Positions 6,921 to 61,227 are shown, numbered from the stretch's first letter. The stretch is 64,000 nt of DNA from an uncultured virus (IMG/VR IMGVR_UViG_3300006120_000016) (IMGVR_UViG_3300006120_000016); one strand, 5' to 3'. Numbers and translations are program-made. The notes: generated by a model from the sequence alone, not told the origin.

Positions 6921-7355
6921 ATGAGCAAGTATCATCAAGGAATATTCACTCCAAAAAACCCAGAGAAATACATAGGGAATGTTAATAAAATTTTTTATAG
7001 ATCTAGCTGGGAAAGATCCGTGTTTTATAGAATGGACCAAGATCCCGGAATAATTAAGTGGGCCTCAGAGGAATTCGGTGTGCCATATCTAAGTCCAGTA
7101 GATTATCGTACACATATTTACTATCCTGATCTGTATTTAGAAAATATACACGGAGAAAAATTTGTACTTGAAATAAAACCGGATATACAAACCAGACCGC
7201 CAGCTAAAAGATCTAGGAATACCAAAAGATATATCACTGAAGTAAAAACTTTTGCGATAAATACATCTAAGTGGAATGCTGCTGAAAAATTCTGTAAAGA
7301 AAGAGGGTGGCAGTTTAAAGTTGTTACCGAGAAAGAGCTTGGAATTAAATGGTAG
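6921..7355 (+). CDS. gp4: head completion protein gp4 (TnsA-like nuclease fold)
   Basis: F.PKNPEKYIG...YRSSWE...WASEE...YYPD...EIKP..QT.PP...N.SKW.AA. Confidence 0.92.
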   Translation: MSKYHQGIFTPKNPEKYIGNVNKIFYRSSWERSVFYRMDQDPGIIKWASEEFGVPYLSPVDYRTHIYYPDLYLENIHGEKFVLEIKPDIQTRPPAKRSRNTKRYITEVKTFAINTSKWNAAEKFCKERGWQFKVVTEKELGIKW

Positions 7356-16381: not shown

Positions 16382-17221
16382 TTATAAAAACCTAAGAATA
16401 GAATTTTCTGAGATAGAAACCGTTCCATCTTTTCTTGGTCTACCACGTTTTTGTTTGATTGTCAATGGTTCTTTTTGTTGAATTGGTTTGATTCCTGAAG
16501 TTCCTGCTAGTAGCAGAACAATAGCCAAAGGATCAAATACAATCACAATAAAAATAATAACAAACCGAACTGCTTCATCAAAATGATCTGATGCAGACTT
16601 GCCATAGACCATCTCTGCAATATACTTCAGAGGACCCACTTCAGCTTGCCCTTTTTGACTAGCTGCTTTATATGGTAAGAGTTTAACATTGAGCGATTCG
16701 ATTTGTCCAGCCGACTGATAAATCTCATCATTGAGAACTTTACGTTCTCGTTCCTGTTTGTGGCGAATGAAATTAGAATCTTTCGGATCCGCCGCCACAA
16801 CCAAGTTATCGAGAGCATCCAGAGAAGTTTGAGCATTCTTAAGTTTCCTTTGTTCTAGATCGATCTGGTCTTGTAGTGGCTGAATCTGTAGTTGGGATAA
16901 CTGAATGTTATCACTAGTTGCTAGATGCGCTCTGGAGAGATACCCAAAAGTTCCCATTGATGTCAATAAGATCAGAAAAACTGTAGCGACCACTAGATAT
17001 GCTCTAATAAGCTTGGAACATTTGTTCCAGTTGTGTTGAAGCCATGCTGCTGAGACCACCTTACTAAATTCCAGAGCAGATGCCATGATCATCACAGCAA
17101 CGCTGGCCCCAGAGAACAACATTGCCATGCCCGTAATAGAGAAATAAGCAGACACGCAAGATAGGGACAAAGCGGCGACTATAGCCAAATGGCTGCTGGT
17201 AATATTGGATGGTTTAATCAT
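16382..17221 (-). CDS. multi-TM membrane protein with coiled coil and C-terminal AT-hook-like motif
   Basis: AYFSITG...LE.SKVV.A.WL...TSMGTFGYLS...EVGPLKYIA...VFDPLAI; KRGRPRK near the C-terminus. Confidence 0.7.
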   Translation of the reverse strand: MIKPSNITSSHLAIVAALSLSCVSAYFSITGMAMLFSGASVAVMIMASALEFSKVVSAAWLQHNWNKCSKLIRAYLVVATVFLILLTSMGTFGYLSRAHLATSDNIQLSQLQIQPLQDQIDLEQRKLKNAQTSLDALDNLVVAADPKDSNFIRHKQERERKVLNDEIYQSAGQIESLNVKLLPYKAASQKGQAEVGPLKYIAEMVYGKSASDHFDEAVRFVIIFIVIVFDPLAIVLLLAGTSGIKPIQQKEPLTIKQKRGRPRKDGTVSISENSILRFL

Positions 17222-17307
17222 TCTCTACCTATATCAGGCCGACACAGTTTCGTCAATGATAAAATAATCTTCATAATATAAAATCCAAAATCATACTAAA
17301 CTTAGAA

Positions 17308-17386
17308 TAACACTGGTTGGACTCGAACCAACGCTAGGGCAACCATAAAGGATTCGATACCAACTTCTCATTAGGCCAACAGTGTT
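17308..17386 (-). ncRNA. tRNA-like RNA or pseudo-tRNA, anticodon undetermined
   Basis: Perfect 7-bp acceptor AACACTG/CAGTGTT and T-arm GTTGG-TTCGAGT-CCAAC. D and anticodon arms are irregular; no encoded CCA. Confidence 0.6.
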
Positions 17387-17472
17387 AATCAAAGTGGTGG
17401 AATACACTTGCGTCCAGATTTCCCAGAACTATTTCTGGCTGATCAACGCCAGTCCACCCTCGGTTGAATATC

Positions 17473-17643
17473 ATTTACTGGGTACTACCATATCCGTTTA
17501 AGGTCAATCTGTATATCGTAGACCTCCTAGAGTAAACCTTTCATCGGTTGCGCCGAACATCCCATATAATGGCGGTTCTCATCTAGGATGATGACTCCCT
17601 CGGTAGTTAGGGTCTTGCGATCTTCTGCACGGACCCAGTAAAT
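17473..17643 (-). ncRNA. ~170-nt multi-stem structured RNA with predicted pseudoknot
   Basis: 11-bp closing stem ATTTACTGGGT/ACCCAGTAAAT. Nested stems CCGT/ACGG, CCTAGA/TCTAGG, GAACC/GGTTT, AGGTC/GACCT. Loop ACTACC is complementary to GGTAGT. Has its own promoter. Confidence 0.7.
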
Positions 17644-17645
17644 TA

Positions 17646-17674
17646 CTTATACAAGAATTGTTTTATGTTGACAA
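17646..17674 (-). promoter_or_regulatory. sigma70-type promoter directly upstream of the structured RNA
   Basis: TTGTCA-17 nt-TATAAG. The predicted start (~17640) falls at the 5' strand of the closing stem. Confidence 0.6.
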
Positions 17675-17686
17675 CATAATATCAAA

Positions 17687-18055
17687 TTATTTTGGTATAT
17701 ATCTTTCTAATACCTGAATATTAGATTTCTCTGGGTTAAAATATTTACAGAATATGTCTAAGACAACTTGAGGATCATATGGTTTACACGAAAAAATATC
17801 CACAAATGCTGCATTTTGATCTTTGGGACAAAAATGAAAAGTTACATTAGAATCCTGAAGTAATTGGAACCCACTCCAACCAATCTTTTTAGGGTCATTA
17901 GTTGTACACCATATCACATGAAGATCGCCAATTTTGATCATCTCAATAGTATCAAGAAGTTCATCTATAAACTTTTGAAACGTTTTTGTGCAATTGATCG
18001 ATATTGGATCACAACCAACTGCGTCAATTGCAGACAAAATTCCCCATGGTTCCAT
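17687..18055 (-). CDS. speD: S-adenosylmethionine decarboxylase proenzyme (SpeD/SpeH-like)
   Basis: WG....ID..GCD...F..EL...IEM...GWSGFQLLQDSNVTFHF......FVDIFSCKPYD. Confidence 0.8.
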   Translation of the reverse strand: MEPWGILSAIDAVGCDPISINCTKTFQKFIDELLDTIEMIKIGDLHVIWCTTNDPKKIGWSGFQLLQDSNVTFHFCPKDQNAAFVDIFSCKPYDPQVVLDIFCKYFNPEKSNIQVLERYIPK

Positions 18056-18093
18056 TTTAGTTCCTTAAAATCTAGATAAAGATATTATTTATA

Positions 18094-18261
18094 TTAATCT
18101 TCGTCTAGATCATACAGGGCATCAATATCCTTAGATCGGATAGCATTAGTCATTCTCTTATTTCGACGATGTTGTCGTCGTTCTTGAATGTCTTCACGAT
18201 AGTTATAATCTTCAACTCGATCAAACTTATTACGATTGTAATCATTTTCCGACTTAGCCAT
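18094..18261 (-). CDS. hypothetical 55-aa protein (not in the ORF track)
   Basis: Hand translation MAKSENDYNRNKFDRVEDYNYREDIQERRQHRRNKRMTNAIRSKDIDALYDLDED. Confidence 0.55.
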   Translation of the reverse strand: MAKSENDYNRNKFDRVEDYNYREDIQERRQHRRNKRMTNAIRSKDIDALYDLDED

Positions 18262-51835: not shown

Positions 51836-52247
51836 TTACACTAAAGAAGACCGTGAGCAACTAATAAATTATATTATTAATTTGGCAAATGCCGATTATT
51901 CTCTAACAGAAATCTCAGAAAAATCTGGCGTCAGTAAAATTACTATCCAAAAATGGCTTAAAAATAATAATGTTAATTATAATAAAGCTGCTCGTAGAAT
52001 GTATTGCAATCAATGTGGAATATTGATGAAAAAGAAATATCAAGTCCAGATTGGTGAAGAAACTGTAAATATTAATATATGTTCATTAAAGTGCAAAAAT
52101 GATTGTATGGCCAATCCTGCCAGAGAAAATCTGAGAGATGAACAAATCATAAAAAGTGATTATGAAGTTCTTCATATCAAAGAAAAAGATTATAAAAATA
52201 ATAAAAAAGAAGTGGTTGAACAATGCATAAACTTTCTAACTCAATAG
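51810..52247 (+). CDS. free-standing endonuclease-derived ORF inside split intein 1 (HTH + CxxC; catalytic core apparently missing)
   Basis: HTH SLTEISEKSGVSKITIQKWL, CNQC, CSLKC. C-terminus RD....DYEVLHIKE.DY......V.QC.NFL matches the end of 53193-54347. Confidence 0.7.
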   Translation: MIDVGTKYNYTKEDREQLINYIINLANADYSLTEISEKSGVSKITIQKWLKNNNVNYNKAARRMYCNQCGILMKKKYQVQIGEETVNINICSLKCKNDCMANPARENLRDEQIIKSDYEVLHIKEKDYKNNKKEVVEQCINFLTQ

Positions 52248-53230
52248 AAAGAAAATTCATAGAATCTTTTGATATTGATGATTATGAAATTCTAACTGAC
52301 AGTGGATGGGAGAATATTTCTTCCATCCATAAAACTGTGGAATATGTCCGGTGGCACATCAAAACCGAATCTGGATTATTTCTAGAATGCGCGGATAATC
52401 ATATTGTATTCAATGATAATATGCAAGAAATATTTGTTAAAAATTGCGTTCCAAATAAAACAAAAATCATTACCGAAAATGGTCCAGAATTAGTAACAGA
52501 ATGTTATGAAACTAATATTTCAGAGAATATGTTCGATATTACTGTAGATTCAAATGATCACAGATATTATACTAATGGAATTCTAAGTCATAATACACAG
52601 ACTGTTGCTTCTCTAATTTTGTGGTATGTGCTATTTAATGAAGATTTCTCAATTGCTATTATGGCAAATAAAGACAAACAAGCAAGAGAAATCTTAGGGC
52701 GAATACAAAATGCATATGAGCATTTACCTAAATGGCTGCAGCAAGGAATTATCACATGGAACAAAGGTGATATTGAATTAGAAAATGGGTCCAAAATTTT
52801 AGCATCTGCTACATCTAGTAGTGCTATTCGTGGAACCTCACAAAATCTTGTATATCTTGACGAATTTGCATTTATTCCATCAAATATTCAGGAAGAGTTT
52901 TTTGCGTCAGTTTATCCTACAATTGCATCTGGTAATACGACAAAAGTATTAATCACTTCTACTCCTAATGGCATGAATATGTTCTATAAGATATGGACAG
53001 ATTCTGAAGAGGGTAGAAATTCATATGAAAGATGTTCAGTTCATTGGTCTATGGTTCCGGGTAGGGATGAAGACTGGAAAGACATGACTGTGCAAAATTC
53101 AAGTTTGCGCCAATTCGAGCAGGAATTTGAATCGATTTCCGCTCAAACTCTTATAAATATAAATAATACACAAGTATTTATAGGAGATTTATATGAGCAA
53201 CTTAAAAAAGAAAACCAAAAAGATAACTGA
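52223..53230 (+). CDS. gp17: terminase fragment B: intein 1 C-part (124 aa) + 179-aa extein with Walker B + intein 2 N-part (32 aa)
   Basis: LECADNH (block B), MFDITV...YYTNGILSHN|T, then LVYLDEFAF, ITSTPNG and QFEQEFE|SISAQTLI. Confidence 0.93.
   Translation: MHKLSNSIERKFIESFDIDDYEILTDSGWENISSIHKTVEYVRWHIKTESGLFLECADNHIVFNDNMQEIFVKNCVPNKTKIITENGPELVTECYETNISENMFDITVDSNDHRYYTNGILSHNTQTVASLILWYVLFNEDFSIAIMANKDKQAREILGRIQNAYEHLPKWLQQGIITWNKGDIELENGSKILASATSSSAIRGTSQNLVYLDEFAFIPSNIQEEFFASVYPTIASGNTTKVLITSTPNGMNMFYKIWTDSEEGRNSYERCSVHWSMVPGRDEDWKDMTVQNSSLRQFEQEFESISAQTLININNTQVFIGDLYEQLKKENQKDN
53152..53165 (+). promoter_or_regulatory. two overlapping T4-type late promoter motifs inside the intein 2 N-part coding sequence
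   Basis: TATAAATA at 53152-53159 and 53158-53165, about 30 nt upstream of the endonuclease ATG. Confidence 0.55.
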
Positions 53231-54347
53231 AGAGGAATTGAGAAAATTATATTTTGATAATAATATGTCTCTTGATGAAATAGGTAAATGTTTTGGTTAT
53301 GTCGATAGGCAACCTATATTAAGATTGTTTAAAAAATTTAACATACAAAGCAGAAGTAAATCTGAATCCGCAAATCTAAGATACAATAATAAATATAAAC
53401 ATATAACTAAAGAATATCTTGAAGAAAAATTGATTAATAATTCTGTGTTAAGTCTATCGAAAGAATTAAATATCCATAGAGGCGCTCTAAGTAAATTGAT
53501 GGCACATTATGGTATAAAAAATGAATACTTTGTTAATTCTAAAAATAAAGAATTAATTCTATCTGATGAATTTAAATTTTTATCGGCCAAAGAAATTTCT
53601 GATAAATTAAACATCACTATAAAAGAAGTTAAATATTATAAAAAGGATTTTGATCCTATTTTATATTCGCAAGAAGAAGTAAAATGTAAAATATCTCAAG
53701 GGGAATATGACTTGGATAGCAGAGGATTTCCAAAGACCTTACTTAATGGAGATATTAACTTATATAATTCAATAATACATTTAACTGAAGATCATATTTT
53801 AACAAGTAAGAAAATAACCGAAAGAATTTATAGAATTATTAATGATTATGATAAAGATTATATTAATGTATGTATTCACTGCAAAGAACCGCTAAAATTT
53901 TATACATATAGAATGGGATATGGAAACAGCGAGGCAAATATCTGTAAAAACTGCATTATGACGCATTCTAAATTTGGGGTGTCTATGATATCTCAAAAAT
54001 TATTTGGTTCTATATATTCCAATTTGGTAATTGGTCCTAAAGATTTTTGTAAATATTCAGACTTAAATGGCGAACATATAATAACAATTGATAGATCAAT
54101 AGTAAATAAAATTCCAAAAAAATTTCATGAGCATTTAAACAAGCATAAATATTTAATTGATTTTGTATTAAACAATAAAATTATAGAATTTGATGGAATA
54201 TATTGGCATAAAAACGATATAAAAGATGTTGCTAGAGATGAATATCTTATGGAAAGCGGATTTGAAATTTTTAGGGTTAAAGAAGAAGATTATTATAATT
54301 TTCCGGATAGGGTATTAAAAGAATGTATGGACTTCCTGAAACAGTAG
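53193..54347 (+). CDS. free-standing Vsr/DUF559-like homing endonuclease inside split intein 2
   Basis: Several HTH repeats, CIHC...CKNC, C-terminal S..SQ.LF...E......IDF...NKIIEFDG.YWH...D..RD..L...GFEIFRV.E. Confidence 0.8.
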   Translation: MSNLKKKTKKITEEELRKLYFDNNMSLDEIGKCFGYVDRQPILRLFKKFNIQSRSKSESANLRYNNKYKHITKEYLEEKLINNSVLSLSKELNIHRGALSKLMAHYGIKNEYFVNSKNKELILSDEFKFLSAKEISDKLNITIKEVKYYKKDFDPILYSQEEVKCKISQGEYDLDSRGFPKTLLNGDINLYNSIIHLTEDHILTSKKITERIYRIINDYDKDYINVCIHCKEPLKFYTYRMGYGNSEANICKNCIMTHSKFGVSMISQKLFGSIYSNLVIGPKDFCKYSDLNGEHIITIDRSIVNKIPKKFHEHLNKHKYLIDFVLNNKIIEFDGIYWHKNDIKDVARDEYLMESGFEIFRVKEEDYYNFPDRVLKECMDFLKQ

Positions 54348-55558
54348 TTCTTAATAACTTCAATTATAAGATAAAATCTCCTGAAGGGTATGTGCCTTTT
54401 CTTGGCGTAAACAAGATTAAAAAAGATCGATATATTCATTTAAAATTTTCCAATGGAGTTGAAATTAAATGTTCGGAAGATCATCCATTTGATACCATAG
54501 ATGGAATTATTGCGGCAAAGATACTAGACAAAAAAACAGAAGTCAAGACAGAAACTTCTGGGTGTTTTGTTATTTCTAAAAGAAACATCAAACGAAAAAT
54601 TGATCTATATGATATTGTAAATTCCGGAACTCAGCATCTATATTATTCTAATGGAATAGTAAGTCACAATTGTCATTTCCTTGGATCATCTAATACCCTT
54701 ATAGACGCCAAGAAACTTCAACAATTAACATGGAAAGAACCTCTTCATAAATTTGAAGATCTTGACATTTATGAAGAACCTATTCCCGGTCATAGATATT
54801 TTATGACAGTAGACGTTTCTAGAGGGGTTTCAATCGATTATTCTGCATTTGTTGTATTTGATGTTACTAATATTCCATATAGAGTTGTAGCAAAATATAG
54901 AAATAATGAAATTGCTCCTCTATTATATCCAAATATTATTTGGAGAGCCGGTAAACATTATAATGAAGCATTAGTTTTGATCGAAATTAATGATAACGGT
55001 CAACAAATTTCAGATATTTTATTCTATGATCTAGAATATGAAGGAGTTGTTTTAACTCAAGTCAAAGGTCGTGCAGGAGTTAGTATGGGTGGAACTCATA
55101 AGGTTCGTCCAATTCGAGGAATTAGGCAGACTAAACAAACCAAAAGAATAGGATGTGCTAACCTTAAAAATATTATCGAATCCGACAAATTAGTCTTTCA
55201 TGATTATGATATCATTTATGAACTTTTTAGATTTATCGAAAATAGATCATCATACGAAGCTGAACAAGGAGAACATGATGATCTTGTGATGTGCCTTGTT
55301 ATGTTTGGGTGGGCAGTTGCTCAGAAATATTTCATTGGTCAAACCGAAACAGACGTTAGATCCGATCTGTGGGAAGAAAATAAAGATTTGATTGAGCAAT
55401 CCGTAACGCCTTTTGGTATTTTAACCGATAATTGGAATATGCCAAACGAATCTGTAGGATCTATCGATTCATTCTATAATATGGATTTTCATCCTGATGG
55501 ATATTATCAAGACGAGTATGAAAATCCTGCTATAGGATTGACTGGTCATAGATTTTAA
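54323..55558 (+). CDS. gp17: terminase fragment C: intein 2 C-part (116 aa) + 295-aa nuclease extein
   Basis: KCSEDHPF (block B), LYDIVN...YYSNGIVSHN|CHFLGS, then VDVSRG...DYSAF, E.ND.G and HDDLVM. Confidence 0.93.
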   Translation: MYGLPETVVLNNFNYKIKSPEGYVPFLGVNKIKKDRYIHLKFSNGVEIKCSEDHPFDTIDGIIAAKILDKKTEVKTETSGCFVISKRNIKRKIDLYDIVNSGTQHLYYSNGIVSHNCHFLGSSNTLIDAKKLQQLTWKEPLHKFEDLDIYEEPIPGHRYFMTVDVSRGVSIDYSAFVVFDVTNIPYRVVAKYRNNEIAPLLYPNIIWRAGKHYNEALVLIEINDNGQQISDILFYDLEYEGVVLTQVKGRAGVSMGGTHKVRPIRGIRQTKQTKRIGCANLKNIIESDKLVFHDYDIIYELFRFIENRSSYEAEQGEHDDLVMCLVMFGWAVAQKYFIGQTETDVRSDLWEENKDLIEQSVTPFGILTDNWNMPNESVGSIDSFYNMDFHPDGYYQDEYENPAIGLTGHRF

Positions 55559-58296: not shown

Positions 58297-61227
58297 TTGG
58301 AATTATTTGGATGGGAAATTGCTAAGAAGAAAGATGATTTAGATCTTTCTTCTTTTGCGCCTAAGGAAACAGATGATGGTGCTATGGTTGTCACTGCTGG
58401 TGGCACCTATGGCACTTATTTGGACATGGAAGGTTCTGCTAAGACTGAAGCAGAATTGGTTGTCAAATATAGAGAAATGGCACTCCAGCCAGAGTGTGAA
58501 AAGGCAGTTGATGAAGTAACAAATGAAGCCATCGTTAAAGAAGGCAATGATAAAATTGTTACTTTAAATCTAGATGATATTAAGTCTTTAAACGATAAAA
58601 TCAAGAAAATCGTTCAAGACGAATTTGATGGGGTCACTCAGCTTCTTAATTTCAATAACTATGGATATGAAATTTTCCGTAGATGGTATGTAGATGGAAG
58701 ACTCTACTATCATGTTATGATTGATGAGAATAATCCAGAACAAGGCATTCAGGAACTTCGTTATATAGATCCCCGCAAAATTCGTAAGGTAAGATTACTT
58801 ACTCGTGAACGTAAGGGTCAAATCTATATCAACAGGAACACTGCCGAGTTTTATGTTTATAACGAAAAAGGATTCAAGGCAACCGGTTCTACTGGTATGG
58901 ACAATCAGGGTCTGAGGATTTCCACAGATTCAATTCTCCATTGCACATCAGGACTTATGGATAAAGACGGAAAACTTGTATTATCATATATCCATAAGGC
59001 AATCAAGCCATTAAATCAACTTCGTATTCTTGAAGACGCCACAGTAATTTATCGTATTTCTCGCGCTCCTGAGCGTCGTGTGTTCTATATTGATGTTGGT
59101 CAGATGCCTAAGATGAAGGCAGAACAACATATGCGTGATATGATGGTAAAGCATAAGAATCGACTAATCTATGATGCCTCCACTGGTGCAGTAAGAGATG
59201 ATCGTAAGTTCGCATGTTATGCTCTAGACACAAAAATTCCACTTCTTGATGGAAGAACTTTAACTATAGAAGAAATTATCTCTGAATATAATCAGGGAAG
59301 AACAAACTGGGTTTATTCTTGTGATCCTATTACAGGCAAGTTTTATCCCGGACCTATTTCTTGGGCAGGTATTACCAAGAAAGAAAGTGATGTGGTTAGA
59401 GTCACTTTTGACAACGGAAAGAGTGTAGTCTGTACTCCAGATCATAAGTTTCCTGTTTGGAATAAAGGATTCATTGAAGCCAAGGATCTTCAAGTTGGTG
59501 AATCTTTGATTCCCGGATACCGTAGAACCAATAAGGTTGCTAATAACAGCAAAGAATACGAACAGATTTATCTTAATGACACCAAGACTTGGGAATTTAC
59601 ACACAGGGAAGTTGCCAAGTGGAAAGACGATCTAGGACTAACAGAAACCAAGGTTTACAAAGATCATACTGAGGATTTTTCTGTTGTTCATCACCTAGAC
59701 TTCAACAGAATGAATAATAATCCAGAAAATCTCGTTTATATGGGATATCTAGATCATTGGCTATATCACACAGAAAATCAAACAATACGATATACCGATA
59801 CGATTATTGGTCAAGTCGTCAATATGCTATCTATGAGAAAAACTTCAGATGAGATTTTGTATGAACTAAACTCAAATGAAGAAATTATTTCTGAGTGGAT
59901 GTCGCTGAATTCAGAAAATCATGTCAAGAACAAGAATTTTGATCATCTAATCAAAAAAGATTTGGTCAAAATCTCTAAGATTTGTGGATTTGAAACTTGG
60001 AATAAAATGAGATCTTCCCTTTGTCCACCAAAAGATCAGATTAGAAGAAATCTAACTTCTCAAAGAGGATCTGATGAATGGAAGCAAAAATTGAGTCAAG
60101 CCAGAATAGGAATTGTAAGTAAATCAAAGACTTGGAAAATATTCAATCCAAATGGCGATATTGAAATTGTTGAAAATCTAAATGAATATTGTAGTGTCAA
60201 TAATCTGAATAGAACCAATATCAAGGGTCAATTTGGATCTAGAGGATATAAGGCAGAAATCCTGAACAATCATAAAGTTATTTCTGTAGAATTTCTAGAT
60301 GAAAAAACTACTGTGGCCGCATTGACAATCGACCAAGAAGAAACCTATCACAGCCATCACACATATCTTCTGGATGCAGGGGTATATACCAAAAATACCA
60401 TGCTTGAAGACTACTGGCTGCCTCGTCGTGAAGGTCAGAACGGAACAGAAATTACTACACTTCCATCAGGACAAAATCTTGGTAAGCTAGAAGACGTAGA
60501 ATATTTTGAAAAGAAACTTTATAGAGCTTTAAATGTTCCTGTATCAAGATTGAATCCTGATGAATCCGGATTTAGTCTTGGCCAATCAGATGAAATCAGC
60601 CGAGATGAACTTTCGTTCCAAAAATTCATTGATAGACTTAGACTTAGATTCTCTGCTCTGTTACTTGGTGCTTTAGAGAAGCAATTAATTCTTAAAAAGG
60701 TTTTTGCACAATCGGATTGGGATGAGATTAAGGATCTAATTCACTTTGATTATGCAAGAGATAACTATTTTGCTGAATTAAAAGACACAGAAATTCTTCT
60801 GAATCGTGTTGGAGCACTTGCACAGATTCAACCATTTCTTGGTATGTTCTATTCACAAGAGTGGGTTAAGAAAAATGTCCTATTCCAGACAGATAATGAC
60901 ATTAAAGAAATGTCTCAGCAGATGGAAAAAGAATCCAAAGAAATGGCTGAGAGGGGCCTTAATCCAGATGGAACTCCAATGATGATGGGTCCAGAAGATG
61001 ATGATCAAGGTGGTTTTGGTAGCGATTCTTCAAGTAAAGGATCTGCGCCAAGTCCTGAACCTAAAAAGGATTCTGGTGTATCATCTGGAAATGTTGGTGG
61101 AAAAGATGCAGAACCTGCTCCTCACAATAGAAGAGTGCCAAAAGAAAGAAAAACTGAAATTGTTCAAGGTCCATCTGGACCATTCACTAGACAAATGCCT
61201 GTTAGAAGAAACCCTTCAGGTAATTAA
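58297..61227 (+). CDS. gp20: portal protein gp20 containing a cis intein (TTG start)
   Basis: FRRWYVDGR, ELRYIDPRKIR, KAIKPLNQLR..EDA.VIYR..RAPERR.FYIDVG, MLEDYWLPRREG, EI.RDEL.F. Confidence 0.96.
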   Translation: MELFGWEIAKKKDDLDLSSFAPKETDDGAMVVTAGGTYGTYLDMEGSAKTEAELVVKYREMALQPECEKAVDEVTNEAIVKEGNDKIVTLNLDDIKSLNDKIKKIVQDEFDGVTQLLNFNNYGYEIFRRWYVDGRLYYHVMIDENNPEQGIQELRYIDPRKIRKVRLLTRERKGQIYINRNTAEFYVYNEKGFKATGSTGMDNQGLRISTDSILHCTSGLMDKDGKLVLSYIHKAIKPLNQLRILEDATVIYRISRAPERRVFYIDVGQMPKMKAEQHMRDMMVKHKNRLIYDASTGAVRDDRKFACYALDTKIPLLDGRTLTIEEIISEYNQGRTNWVYSCDPITGKFYPGPISWAGITKKESDVVRVTFDNGKSVVCTPDHKFPVWNKGFIEAKDLQVGESLIPGYRRTNKVANNSKEYEQIYLNDTKTWEFTHREVAKWKDDLGLTETKVYKDHTEDFSVVHHLDFNRMNNNPENLVYMGYLDHWLYHTENQTIRYTDTIIGQVVNMLSMRKTSDEILYELNSNEEIISEWMSLNSENHVKNKNFDHLIKKDLVKISKICGFETWNKMRSSLCPPKDQIRRNLTSQRGSDEWKQKLSQARIGIVSKSKTWKIFNPNGDIEIVENLNEYCSVNNLNRTNIKGQFGSRGYKAEILNNHKVISVEFLDEKTTVAALTIDQEETYHSHHTYLLDAGVYTKNTMLEDYWLPRREGQNGTEITTLPSGQNLGKLEDVEYFEKKLYRALNVPVSRLNPDESGFSLGQSDEISRDELSFQKFIDRLRLRFSALLLGALEKQLILKKVFAQSDWDEIKDLIHFDYARDNYFAELKDTEILLNRVGALAQIQPFLGMFYSQEWVKKNVLFQTDNDIKEMSQQMEKESKEMAERGLNPDGTPMMMGPEDDDQGGFGSDSSSKGSAPSPEPKKDSGVSSGNVGGKDAEPAPHNRRVPKERKTEIVQGPSGPFTRQMPVRRNPSGN
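59215..60396 (+). mobile_element. 394-aa intein with HNH endonuclease in the portal gene
   Basis: CYALDTKIPLLDG, CTPDHKF, VHHLDFNRMNN.PENL (HNH), YLLDAGVYTKN|T. Excision restores DDRKFA-TMLEDYWLPRREG. Confidence 0.93.

What the first reader, a model, noticed from the sequence alone, without database searches (positions are those of the whole stretch)
17473..17674. Promoter-driven ~170-nt pseudoknotted non-coding RNA
Seen on the minus strand: TTGTCA-17-TATAAG leads directly into an 11-bp closing stem. Inside are CCGT/ACGG, a TC-GCAA-GA loop, CCCT-AACTACCG-AGGG, CCTAGA/TCTAGG, GAACC/GGTTT, CCAT/ATGG, TCGG/CCGA and AGGTC/GACCT. The loop ACTACC (17602-17607) pairs with GGTAGT (17484-17489) next to the closing stem. 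The segment is more GC-rich than its flanks and has no ORF in the track. Inference: a compact tertiary-structured phage RNA co-transcribed with tRNA-like elements. It may belong to a known phage motif (manA should be tested) or be new.
Basis: partly seen in the sequence, partly recalled or inferred. Interest (0 to 1): 0.72.

Follow-up and report, generated by a model that had tools for sequence, protein, structure and literature searches.

The report
New structured RNA in phage tRNA island
A roughly 170-base folded RNA of unknown function sits among the tRNA and tmRNA genes of a small group of uncultured T4-like phages, and matching base changes in related phages show that its fold is under selection.

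Summary
The described stems are all present at the stated coordinates (minus strand, 17643-17473, called E1 here). Alone the sequence is unremarkable: MFE z = -1.67.

Homologues settle it. Pattern scans plus a covariance model found five sequence variants, all in uncultured T4-like phage contigs. On 4 full-length variants, 90.6% of pair cells are standard pairs, against 28-48% when partners are slid. Ten of 43 pairs change on both sides, against 0-1 when slid. Junctions and the pseudoknot partners are invariant.

- **Supported:** the closing stem, the pseudoknot hairpin, the three-way-junction domain and the last hairpin.
- **Not supported:** the UC/GA mini-hairpin and the fourth pair of CCGU/ACGG.
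- **Untestable:** the pseudoknot, because both strands never vary.
- **Weak:** the promoter. In relatives E1 starts 3 nt after an upstream stop codon.

In 3 of 4 full-length variant types E1 ends 1-2 nt before tRNA-Ser(UGA). One lineage adds a permuted tmRNA; the region is syntenic with the window.

No Rfam family matches, manA, YrlA and T4 rnaC/rnaD included. The function is unknown. My best guess is a stable trans-acting RNA released by tRNA processing. A Ro60-binding-like motif is an untested lead.

The parts
17646..17674 (-). Promoter-like site TTGTCA-17-TATAAG
   Evidence: Read. The scan tool does not list it because the last base of the -10 hexamer is not T. Relatives have no equivalent site directly upstream of the RNA.
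17473..17643 (-). E1: conserved structured RNA of about 171 nt (the finding)
   Evidence: Homologues score 71-87 bits with a single-sequence model. 90.6% of pair cells are standard pairs, and 10 of 43 pairs change on both sides.
17633..17643 (-). P1 5' strand. It pairs with 17473-17483.
   Evidence: A core of 7-9 bp is kept in all 4 full-length variants. Two pairs change on both sides, for example A-U to G-C.
17473..17483 (-). P1 3' strand
17613..17632 (-). CCG of the short helix P2, then a purine-rich junction (GNNGAAGA-N-CGCAAGA)
   Evidence: This is the longest conserved single-stranded block. Only the middle CG/CG pairs of P2 are kept in all 4 variants. It contains the GGUCCG and G-N-N-GAAG strings compared with the Ro60 site.
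17597..17612 (-). Hairpin CCCU-AACUACCG-AGGG. Its loop is the 5' half of the proposed pseudoknot.
   Evidence: Invariant in all 5 variants.
17484..17489 (-). GGUAGU, the 3' half of the proposed pseudoknot, next to P1
   Evidence: It is complementary to 17602-17607. It is invariant in all 4 full-length variants and up to the contig end in L059, where GGUAG is read; L061 ends before it.
17526..17587 (-). Three-way-junction domain: P3 CCUAGA/UCUAGG, P4 GAACC/GGUUU, hairpin CCAU/AUGG and hairpin UCGG-CGCAA-CCGA
   Evidence: Folding this domain alone in each of 5 variants gives the same architecture. P4 and both hairpins each have 2 pairs changed on both sides.
17501..17525 (-). P5 hairpin AGGUC...GACCU
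   Evidence: It becomes GGGAU/AUCCU and GGGAC/GUCCU in relatives. Two pairs change on both sides, and G-U pairs fix the strand.
17396..17458 (-). E2: second stem-closed element (GGUGGA...UCCACC)
   Evidence: Seen. It occurs only in identical copies of this phage, so conservation cannot be tested.
17307..17387 (-). E3: degenerate tRNA-like element with acceptor stem and T arm intact and a poor anticodon arm
   Evidence: Rfam tRNA scores 17.3 bits, below the 29-bit cut-off. ARAGORN calls it only at an 85% threshold, as tRNA-Arg(CCU), and not at default settings.
17687..18055 (-). Upstream gene: S-adenosylmethionine decarboxylase
   Evidence: Pfam AdoMet_dc, E = 9.6e-16.
16382..17221 (-). Downstream gene: 279-aa hypothetical protein
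   Evidence: No family passes its cut-off in Pfam or PHROGs. Homologues exist in many phage contigs.

Best explanation
E1 is a real gene for an independently folding RNA of about 170 nt. It represents a family absent from Rfam and is carried by a narrow group of uncultured T4-like myophages, inside the genome segment where these phages keep tRNA and tmRNA genes.

Shown:
- The fold is conserved. It has a terminal stem, a hairpin whose loop can pair next to that stem, a three-way-junction domain and a last hairpin.
- The stems vary with compensation, while the junctions and the two pseudoknot strands never vary.
- G-U pairs place the RNA on the window's minus strand.

Inferred:
- E1 is transcribed together with the upstream gene. 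A weak promoter of its own may add to this in the window.
- Its 3' end is made when RNase P cuts at the 5' end of the tRNA that starts 1-2 nt downstream in relatives.
- It then persists as a stable RNA that acts in trans. Its invariant single-stranded core would be the binding surface for a specific partner, most likely a protein of RNA processing or RNA quality control.

The partner and the effect are unknown.
For: **Homologues.** A model built from the window sequence alone finds the other 4 variants at 71-87 bits, E = 1e-18 to 1e-23.

**Covariation on 4 distinct full-length sequences.**
- 90.6% of 170 pair cells are standard pairs, against 28.4-47.9% when partners are slid by 1-3 columns.
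- 10 of 43 pairs change on both sides, against 0-1 when slid.
- 0 of 500 shuffles reach the observed covariation score.

**Independent folds.** Folding the junction domain and the last hairpin alone gives one architecture in all 5 variants.

**Strand.** G-U pairs occur at 3 positions. They would be C-A mismatches on the other strand.

**Conserved unpaired blocks.** One runs from GAAGA through CGCAAGA and the whole pseudoknot hairpin. The other is the 3' block ending in GGUAGU-ACCCAG.

**Context.**
- tRNA-Ser(UGA) starts 1-2 nt after E1 in 3 of 4 full-length variant types. The fifth type is cut by its contig end.
- A second tRNA-like gene follows, and in one lineage a permuted tmRNA.
- The island lies upstream of the same block in relatives and in the window: hydrolase, late-transcription coactivator, gp59, methyltransferase, gp32.
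- E1 is kept in the window even though tRNA-Ser is 5 kb away. This favours a role of its own over a pure tRNA leader.
Against: - No expression data exist, so neither a discrete transcript nor its ends are shown.
- The alignment is shallow: 4 full-length distinct sequences from about 3 lineages. It was fitted to a structure taken from one of them, which inflates the share of paired cells (caveat).
- No partner protein is conserved next to E1. The upstream gene differs between variants: AdoMet decarboxylase, a 68-aa SWIM zinc-finger protein, or a small ORF. The window has no SWIM homologue.
- RNase P cleavage is inferred from adjacency alone.
- A complex fold with invariant junctions fits a ligand sensor or a ribozyme equally well.
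Confidence: 0.5

Rival explanations
1. E1 is a cis-acting end-protection or processing module. It stays attached to the upstream mRNA as its 3' end after RNase P cuts at the adjacent tRNA. Its stem plus pseudoknot buries the new 3' end and blocks 3' exonucleases. Alternatively it shields the 5' end of the tRNA/tmRNA precursor.
For: E1 starts 3 nt after the upstream stop codon and ends 1-2 nt before a tRNA in relatives. The 3' end lies inside the terminal stem, directly next to the proposed pseudoknot strand. In the window a tRNA-like element that keeps its acceptor and T arms follows downstream.
Against: A simple hairpin would be enough for protection, whereas E1 has long invariant unpaired blocks. 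The protected upstream gene differs between variants. In the window E1 is separated from the tRNA-like element by another structured element.
Confidence: 0.2
2. E1 is a Y-RNA-like RNA. Its terminal stem and the 5' strand just above it bind a Ro60/Rsr ring protein, from host or phage. The rest of the fold recruits or blocks an effector such as an exonuclease, which redirects RNA quality control during infection.
For: In 3 of 5 variants the 5' strand at the top of the terminal stem reads GGUCCGA and is followed directly by G-N-CGAAG. Chen et al. 2014 (PMC4201824; section 6 and search passages read) report GGUCCGA as the strand contacted by Xenopus Ro60. They report GNCGAAN0-1G near the 5' end of bacterial Y RNAs. 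They describe Y RNAs as having a long stem that holds the Ro60 site, and report likely Y RNAs encoded near Ro60 in some phages. That this stem is formed by the 5' and 3' ends is my recollection.
Against: - The window copy reads GGUCCGU/GCAGAAG and the L058 copy GGCCCGA/GCUGAAG, so neither motif is invariant.
- There is no Rfam Y_RNA or YrlA match on E1 at E <= 10. YrlA does not match E1 in 4 E1-bearing records.
- No TROVE domain was found in 51 window ORFs or in 10 related records (0 of 5, 0 of 5).
- E1 has no T-arm/D-arm module.
- The resemblance was noticed after the fact.
Confidence: 0.12
3. E1 is a ligand-sensing aptamer of riboswitch type. It couples a metabolite signal to production or processing of the downstream RNA genes.
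For: The architecture is typical of aptamers: a closing stem, a multi-helix junction, a loop-to-tail pseudoknot and an invariant junction core. A glutamine riboswitch has been proposed within a phage tmRNA gene in a related group of T4-like phages (PMC9004378; abstract and passages read).
Against: There is no expression platform. Only 1-2 nt separate E1 from the tRNA in relatives. No terminator follows E1 in the window; the only minus-strand terminator-like site is the T arm of E3. No riboswitch family matches.
Confidence: 0.08
4. E1 is a self-cleaving or processing ribozyme. It frees itself from the upstream mRNA or helps release the neighbouring tRNA.
For: E1 is a compact pseudoknotted fold with invariant unpaired nucleotides, lying exactly between an mRNA and a tRNA.
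Against: No known ribozyme family matches at E <= 10. Nothing in the data points to a cleavage site.
Confidence: 0.07
5. E1 is a decaying remnant or a chance fold with no function.
For: The single-sequence fold is not unusual (z = -1.67). The family is very small.
Against: Ten pairs carry compensatory changes, against 0-1 in the slid controls. Long blocks stay invariant while the stems diverge.
Confidence: 0.03

Closest known systems
Phage T4 stable RNAs rnaC and rnaD (species 1 and species 2 RNA)
   Same: They are stable structured RNAs of 119-139 nt encoded inside the tRNA gene cluster of a T4-type phage (annotation). That their function remains unknown, and that they are processed from the same transcripts as the tRNAs, is my recollection. 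E1 shares the same genomic logic.
   Different: There is no sequence or structure similarity. The E1 model scores at most 4.2 bits on rnaC, and the 4-sequence model finds nothing in the whole T4 genome. rnaC carries a T arm; E1 does not.
Y RNAs (metazoan Y RNA; bacterial and phage YrlA, YrlB, Yrn1)
   Same: E1 has a terminal stem formed by its two ends. Directly above it, on the 5' strand, lies a string like the Ro60-contacted GGUCCGA and the bacterial GNCGAAN0-1G. Some phages encode Y RNAs (PMC4201824).
   Different: The motifs are exact in only 3 of 5 variants. No TROVE gene was found nearby or in related records. E1 has no tRNA-like T/D module and no Rfam match.
MALAT1-type 3' ends (a structured protective element followed by a tRNA-like RNase P site)
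   Same: A structured element lies immediately upstream of a tRNA or tRNA-like RNase P substrate, so tRNA processing would create the element's 3' end. The comparison is recalled, not taken from a call.
   Different: That system is eukaryotic and uses a triple helix with an A-rich tail. E1 has neither, and nothing here tests exonuclease resistance.
GOLLD and ROOL, large ornate RNAs of phages and bacteria
   Same: They are orphan structured RNAs of unknown function. Their association with phages and their position near tRNA genes is recalled; I saw only the abstract of bioRxiv 10.1101/2024.12.08.627333, in the listing.
   Different: They are several times longer than E1. Both are in Rfam, and neither matches E1.
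manA RNA motif
   Different: There is no match at E <= 10 in the window region or on a relative's copy.

Membership tests
manA RNA motif (Rfam) | Match to the family covariance model | tested here: not met
   A cmscan of all 4227 Rfam families over 16800-18200 at E <= 10 gave no manA hit. The same holds for the L060 copy.
Any Rfam 15 family | Match at or near the gathering score | tested here: not met
   In the window only tRNA-Ser passes the gathering score. Nothing overlaps E1 on its own strand at E <= 10. The best hit on the L060 copy is 6.4 bits, E = 9.2, to an unrelated sRNA.
Y RNA / YrlA | Long stem that holds the Ro60 site (formed by the 5' and 3' ends, as I recall) | tested here: met
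   A terminal stem formed by the 5' and 3' ends is present: 7-11 bp, conserved, with 2 compensatory pairs.
Y RNA / YrlA | Ro60/Rsr site motif on the 5' strand (GGUCCGA; GNCGAAN0-1G; PMC4201824) | tested here: inconclusive
   Both motifs are exact in L060, L059 and L066. Each deviates by one base in the window and in L058.
Y RNA / YrlA | Encoded next to a Ro60/Rsr (TROVE) gene | tested here: not met
   No TROVE domain in 51 window ORFs, 0 of 5 records or 0 of 5 records. All records are incomplete, and the hosts are unknown.
Y RNA / YrlA | tRNA-like T and D stem-loops; match to Rfam YrlA | tested here: not met
   YrlA (RF02553) gives only 11.5-bit hits elsewhere in 2 of 4 records and none on E1. 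No T-loop sequence occurs in E1.
T4 rnaC / rnaD | Sequence or structure homology to the T4 genes | tested here: not met
   Model R1 with filters off over the T4 tRNA region scores at most 4.2 bits on rnaC. Model R2 over the whole T4 genome gives no match.
Riboswitch | Aptamer followed by an expression platform (terminator or sequestered ribosome-binding site) upstream of a regulated gene | tested here: not met
   E1 ends 1-2 nt before a tRNA in relatives. No terminator-like site follows E1 in the window.
tRNA (element E3, not E1) | Cloverleaf scoring above the family cut-off | tested here: not met
   Rfam tRNA scores 17.3 bits against a 29-bit cut-off. ARAGORN's default finds none; at an 85% threshold it calls tRNA-Arg(CCU).
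Self-cleaving ribozymes (hammerhead, twister, pistol, hatchet, HDV-like and others) | Match to a family model; cleavage activity | tested here: not met
   No model matches. Cleavage activity cannot be tested with these tools.

The most novel reading that the evidence does not exclude
E1 is a phage-made counterpart of Y RNAs. Its terminal stem and the GGUCCGA / GNCGAAG-like 5' strand would dock a Ro60/Rsr-type ring protein. The pseudoknotted body would replace the tRNA-like module of YrlA. The phage could then disarm or redirect the host's machinery for degrading structured RNAs while it floods the cell with its own tRNAs and tmRNA.
Probability: 0.12. Interest if true: 0.8.

Novelty: new member of a known kind. 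Interest (0 to 1): 0.55.

Why it matters
T4-type phages have carried unexplained stable RNAs in their tRNA clusters since the 1970s (recalled). E1 is a second, unrelated example. Its architecture is clean and supported by covariation, and its unpaired core is invariant, which marks a specific binding surface.

E1 sits with tRNA-Ser, an odd tRNA with an 8-nt anticodon loop and a two-piece tmRNA. This points to a phage toolkit that acts on host translation or RNA turnover. If the Ro60-like motif is functional, E1 would link phage RNA islands to RNA quality control.

Its small size makes it a practical target for probing, pull-downs and structure determination.

Tried and rejected
- **Known families.** Rfam gave nothing at gathering thresholds or at E <= 10. 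This excludes manA, the riboswitches, the ribozymes, 6S, SRP RNA, RNase P RNA, tmRNA and Y RNA.
- **Cultured phages.** blastn of the gap against GenBank phages found no match. blastn of a relative's E1-tRNA-tmRNA cluster matched only tRNA-Ser genes.
- **Synteny through neighbours.**
  - AdoMet decarboxylase gave 6 loci: 4 identical and 2 distant ones without E1.
  - The 279-aa protein gave 32 loci. None carries E1, apart from the 4 identical copies.
- **T4 rnaC/rnaD.** No similarity.
- **Wider model search.** Model R2 over 35 records, about 1.7 Mb, found only a 9.2-bit hit at E = 0.52.
- **Chance pattern matches.** Five of the 9 loci matched by a window-specific 18-mer contain no E1.
- **Prokaryote genomes.** The conserved-core pattern has 0 matches.
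- **Alignment methods.** RNAalifold on MAFFT alignments misaligned the variable hairpins and gave inconsistent structures. I used per-variant domain folds and a model-guided alignment instead.
- **Full-length folds.** Full-length MFE folds differ between variants. Only one of 5 reproduces the whole consensus.
- **Pairing to neighbouring RNAs.** RNAduplex between E1 and the neighbouring tRNAs was no better than shuffles (after a time-out).
- **Neighbouring proteins.** The 279-aa protein and the SWIM protein show no RNA-related domain. tblastn of the SWIM protein against the window found nothing.
- **Earlier scan notes.** None exist for this sequence or place.
- **Prior listing.** Fremin et al. 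2023 (PMC10690425) list 8,495 candidate structured RNAs from IMG/VR, 29-151 nt long. Their main tables could not be read. I cannot exclude that part of E1 is already listed there.

Full report
**1. The observation**

- TTGTCA (17674-17669), 17 nt, then TATAAG (17651-17646).
- An 11-bp terminal stem: 17643-17633 with 17483-17473.
- CCGU/ACGG.
- The hairpin CCCU-AACUACCG-AGGG.
- CCUAGA/UCUAGG enclosing GAACC/GGUUU and two small hairpins.
- AGGUC/GACCU.
- The loop ACUACC (17607-17602), complementary to GGUAGU (17489-17484) next to the terminal stem.

The segment is richer in G+C than its flanks and has no minus-strand ORF of 30 aa or more. On its own it is not distinguishable from chance. The MFE z-score is -1.67, and 10 of 200 shuffles fold as well.

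**2. Setting**

The window is a T4-like phage. It encodes gp32, gp59, RNase H, baseplate, sheath, portal, terminase and prohead protease homologues.

The finding lies in a 465-nt ORF-free gap (17222-17686). The gap sits between an S-adenosylmethionine decarboxylase gene and a 279-aa hypothetical gene, both on the minus strand. It holds three consecutive structured elements.
- **E1** (17643-17473): the finding.
- **E2** (17458-17396): a second stem-closed element.
- **E3** (17387-17307): a degenerate tRNA-like element. Rfam tRNA scores 17.3 bits against a 29-bit cut-off. ARAGORN calls it only at an 85% threshold.

**3. Finding relatives**

- Four IMG/VR contigs carry the gap at 100% identity.
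- Relatives of the two flanking proteins do not carry E1.
- GenBank phages have nothing similar.
- An 18-mer from the pseudoknot hairpin picked up one new contig. A model built from the window sequence alone aligned it end to end at 87 bits.
- The blocks conserved between those two copies gave a 20-specified-base pattern. It matched 4 metagenome contigs, 10 viral contigs and no prokaryote genome.
- A scan with a neighbouring tRNA-like sequence and one with the upstream small protein added further copies.

In all there are five sequence variants: the window type, L043/L058, L060, L066/L069 and L059/L061. The last type is cut by its contig ends. A 4-sequence model found nothing more in 35 further records, about 1.7 Mb, the whole T4 genome included.

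**4. Structure and covariation**

Folding the junction domain and the last hairpin separately in each variant gives the same architecture five times, despite different sequences.

On the model-guided alignment of the 4 distinct full-length variants:
- 90.6% of 170 pair cells are standard pairs, against 28.4-47.9% when the 3' partners are slid by 1-3 columns.
- 10 of 43 pairs have changes on both sides, against 0-1 when slid.
- 0 of 500 shuffles reach the observed covariation score.

The compensatory pairs lie in P1 (2), P4 (2), both small hairpins (2 each) and P5 (2). Examples:
- CCAU/AUGG becomes CCUG/CAGG and CCGC/GCGG.
- UCGG/CCGA becomes GUGG/CCAC.
- AGGUC/GACCU becomes GGGAU/AUCCU and GGGAC/GUCCU.

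G-U pairs at three positions fix the transcribed strand.

There are caveats. The alignment holds only about three independent lineages. It was fitted to a structure taken from one of its members. MAFFT/RNAalifold alignments misplace the variable hairpins. Only 1 of 5 full-length MFE folds reproduces the whole consensus.

**5. What did not hold up**

- **UC-GCAA-GA mini-hairpin.** Its outer pair becomes A-A in L058 and C-A in L066.
- **CCGU/ACGG.** Only the middle two pairs are kept in all 4 variants; the fourth pair is kept in 1 of 4.
- **Pseudoknot.** Both strands are invariant. The pairing is sterically an ordinary H-type knot that would stack on P1, which is my inference, but covariation cannot test it.
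- **Promoter.** It lacks the conserved last T of the -10 hexamer, and the scan tool does not report it. That tool finds promoter-like sites at about the chance rate here.
- **Room for a promoter in relatives.** E1 begins 3 nt after the stop codon of the upstream ORF. E1 is therefore most likely co-transcribed with that gene.

**6. Context in relatives**

- tRNA-Ser(UGA) starts 1-2 nt after E1 in 3 of 4 full-length variant types.
- A conserved tRNA-like gene with an 8-nt anticodon loop (UCCA) follows; ARAGORN calls it at an 85% threshold.
- The L060 lineage then carries a permuted two-piece tmRNA. ARAGORN gives the tag ANDNGVMEYALAA, and Rfam tmRNA_permuted scores 120 bits.
- The island lies upstream of a conserved block: cell-wall hydrolase, late-transcription coactivator, gp59, methyltransferase, gp32. 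This holds both in that lineage and in the window.

[quoted passage not shown] In the window the tRNA-Ser(UGA) gene lies 5 kb away, yet E1 is retained.

**7. Comparison with known RNAs**

- **Rfam.** No family matches E1 at E <= 10, in the window or in a relative. This includes manA.
- **T4 rnaC and rnaD.** They share the setting but not the sequence or the fold.
- **Y RNA lead, for.** In 3 of 5 variants the 5' strand just above the terminal stem reads GGUCCGA followed by G-N-CGAAG. Chen et al. 2014 give GGUCCGA as the strand contacted by Ro60. [quoted passage not shown]
- **Y RNA lead, against.** The window and L058 copies each deviate by one base in both motifs. YrlA and Y_RNA models do not match. 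E1 has no T/D module. No TROVE protein is encoded in the window (51 ORFs) or in 10 related but incomplete records.

**8. How it most likely works**

Shown: E1 is a conserved fold with invariant unpaired blocks, on this strand, in an RNA-gene island, and it abuts a tRNA in relatives.

Inferred: E1 is co-transcribed with the upstream gene, its 3' end is released by RNase P, and it acts as a stable RNA in trans through its invariant core. I put this at about 0.5.

The rivals are:
- a cis-acting end-protection or processing module (0.2);
- a Ro60-binding Y-RNA analogue (0.12);
- a ligand sensor (0.08);
- a ribozyme (0.07);
- no function (0.03).

**9. Novelty and limits**

E1 is a new RNA family of a known general kind, the orphan structured RNAs of phage tRNA clusters. 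It is known from five variants in 14 contig records that are not the window's: 10 viral and 4 metagenome, two of which probably duplicate viral records.

A published catalogue of IMG/VR structured-RNA candidates could not be checked because its tables were unreadable. No expression data were available.

Noticed in passing
L060:1430-1837 (also L062-L065): A permuted two-piece tmRNA gene lies about 290 nt downstream of E1 in a relative phage. ARAGORN gives the tag ANDNGVMEYALAA; Rfam tmRNA_permuted scores 120 bits and alpha_tmRNA 85.7 bits. This is a known feature of aquatic T4-like myophages (PMC9004378).
   Followed up: partly
L060:1249-1328 and L043:386-307 (minus strand): A conserved tRNA-like gene with an 8-nt anticodon loop lies right after tRNA-Ser; ARAGORN at an 85% threshold gives anticodon UCCA. 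By eye the acceptor stem carries a compensatory change (G-C to A-U) between the two phages. It could be a quadruplet-reading or frameshift-related tRNA.
   Followed up: partly
L012:2130-2350 (same in L013): Upstream of the 279-aa protein homologue lies a circularly permuted tRNA-like arrangement. It runs: anticodon-stem 3' strand, T arm and acceptor 3' strand with CCA; then an insert of about 125 nt closed by a 10-bp stem; then the acceptor 5' strand, D arm and anticodon-stem 5' strand. Neither ARAGORN nor Rfam recognises it. It may be a divergent two-piece tmRNA or a permuted tRNA.
   Followed up: partly
window 17396-17458 (minus strand): E2, a second stem-closed element between E1 and the tRNA-like E3, contains another CGCAAG string. 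It is found only in identical copies, so its conservation cannot be judged.
   Followed up: no
window 58297-61227: The portal protein gene (gp20-like) carries an intein with an HNH endonuclease signature (Portal_T4 plus Intein_splicing plus HNH_3).
   Followed up: no
window 52223-55558: The large terminase is split. The N-terminal ATPase ORF (52223-53230) and the C-terminal nuclease ORF (54323-55558) are separated by an ORF with a DUF559/restriction-endonuclease-like domain (53193-54347). This suggests an inserted homing element.
   Followed up: no
window 6921-7355: A small ORF with a TnsA-like endonuclease N-terminal domain (E = 2.5e-18) lies among the baseplate genes.
   Followed up: no
window 17228-17256 (minus strand): A second promoter-like site, TTGACG-17-TATAGG, read by eye and not listed by the scan tool, lies just upstream of the 279-aa gene. 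It would make E1-E2-E3 a unit separate from that gene.
   Followed up: no
L043:654-860 (minus strand), L079:468-674: A 68-aa SWIM zinc-finger protein (Pfam SWIM, E = 4.6e-4, just above the cut-off) is encoded immediately upstream of E1 in 3 of 5 variant types. The window has no homologue of it.
   Followed up: partly
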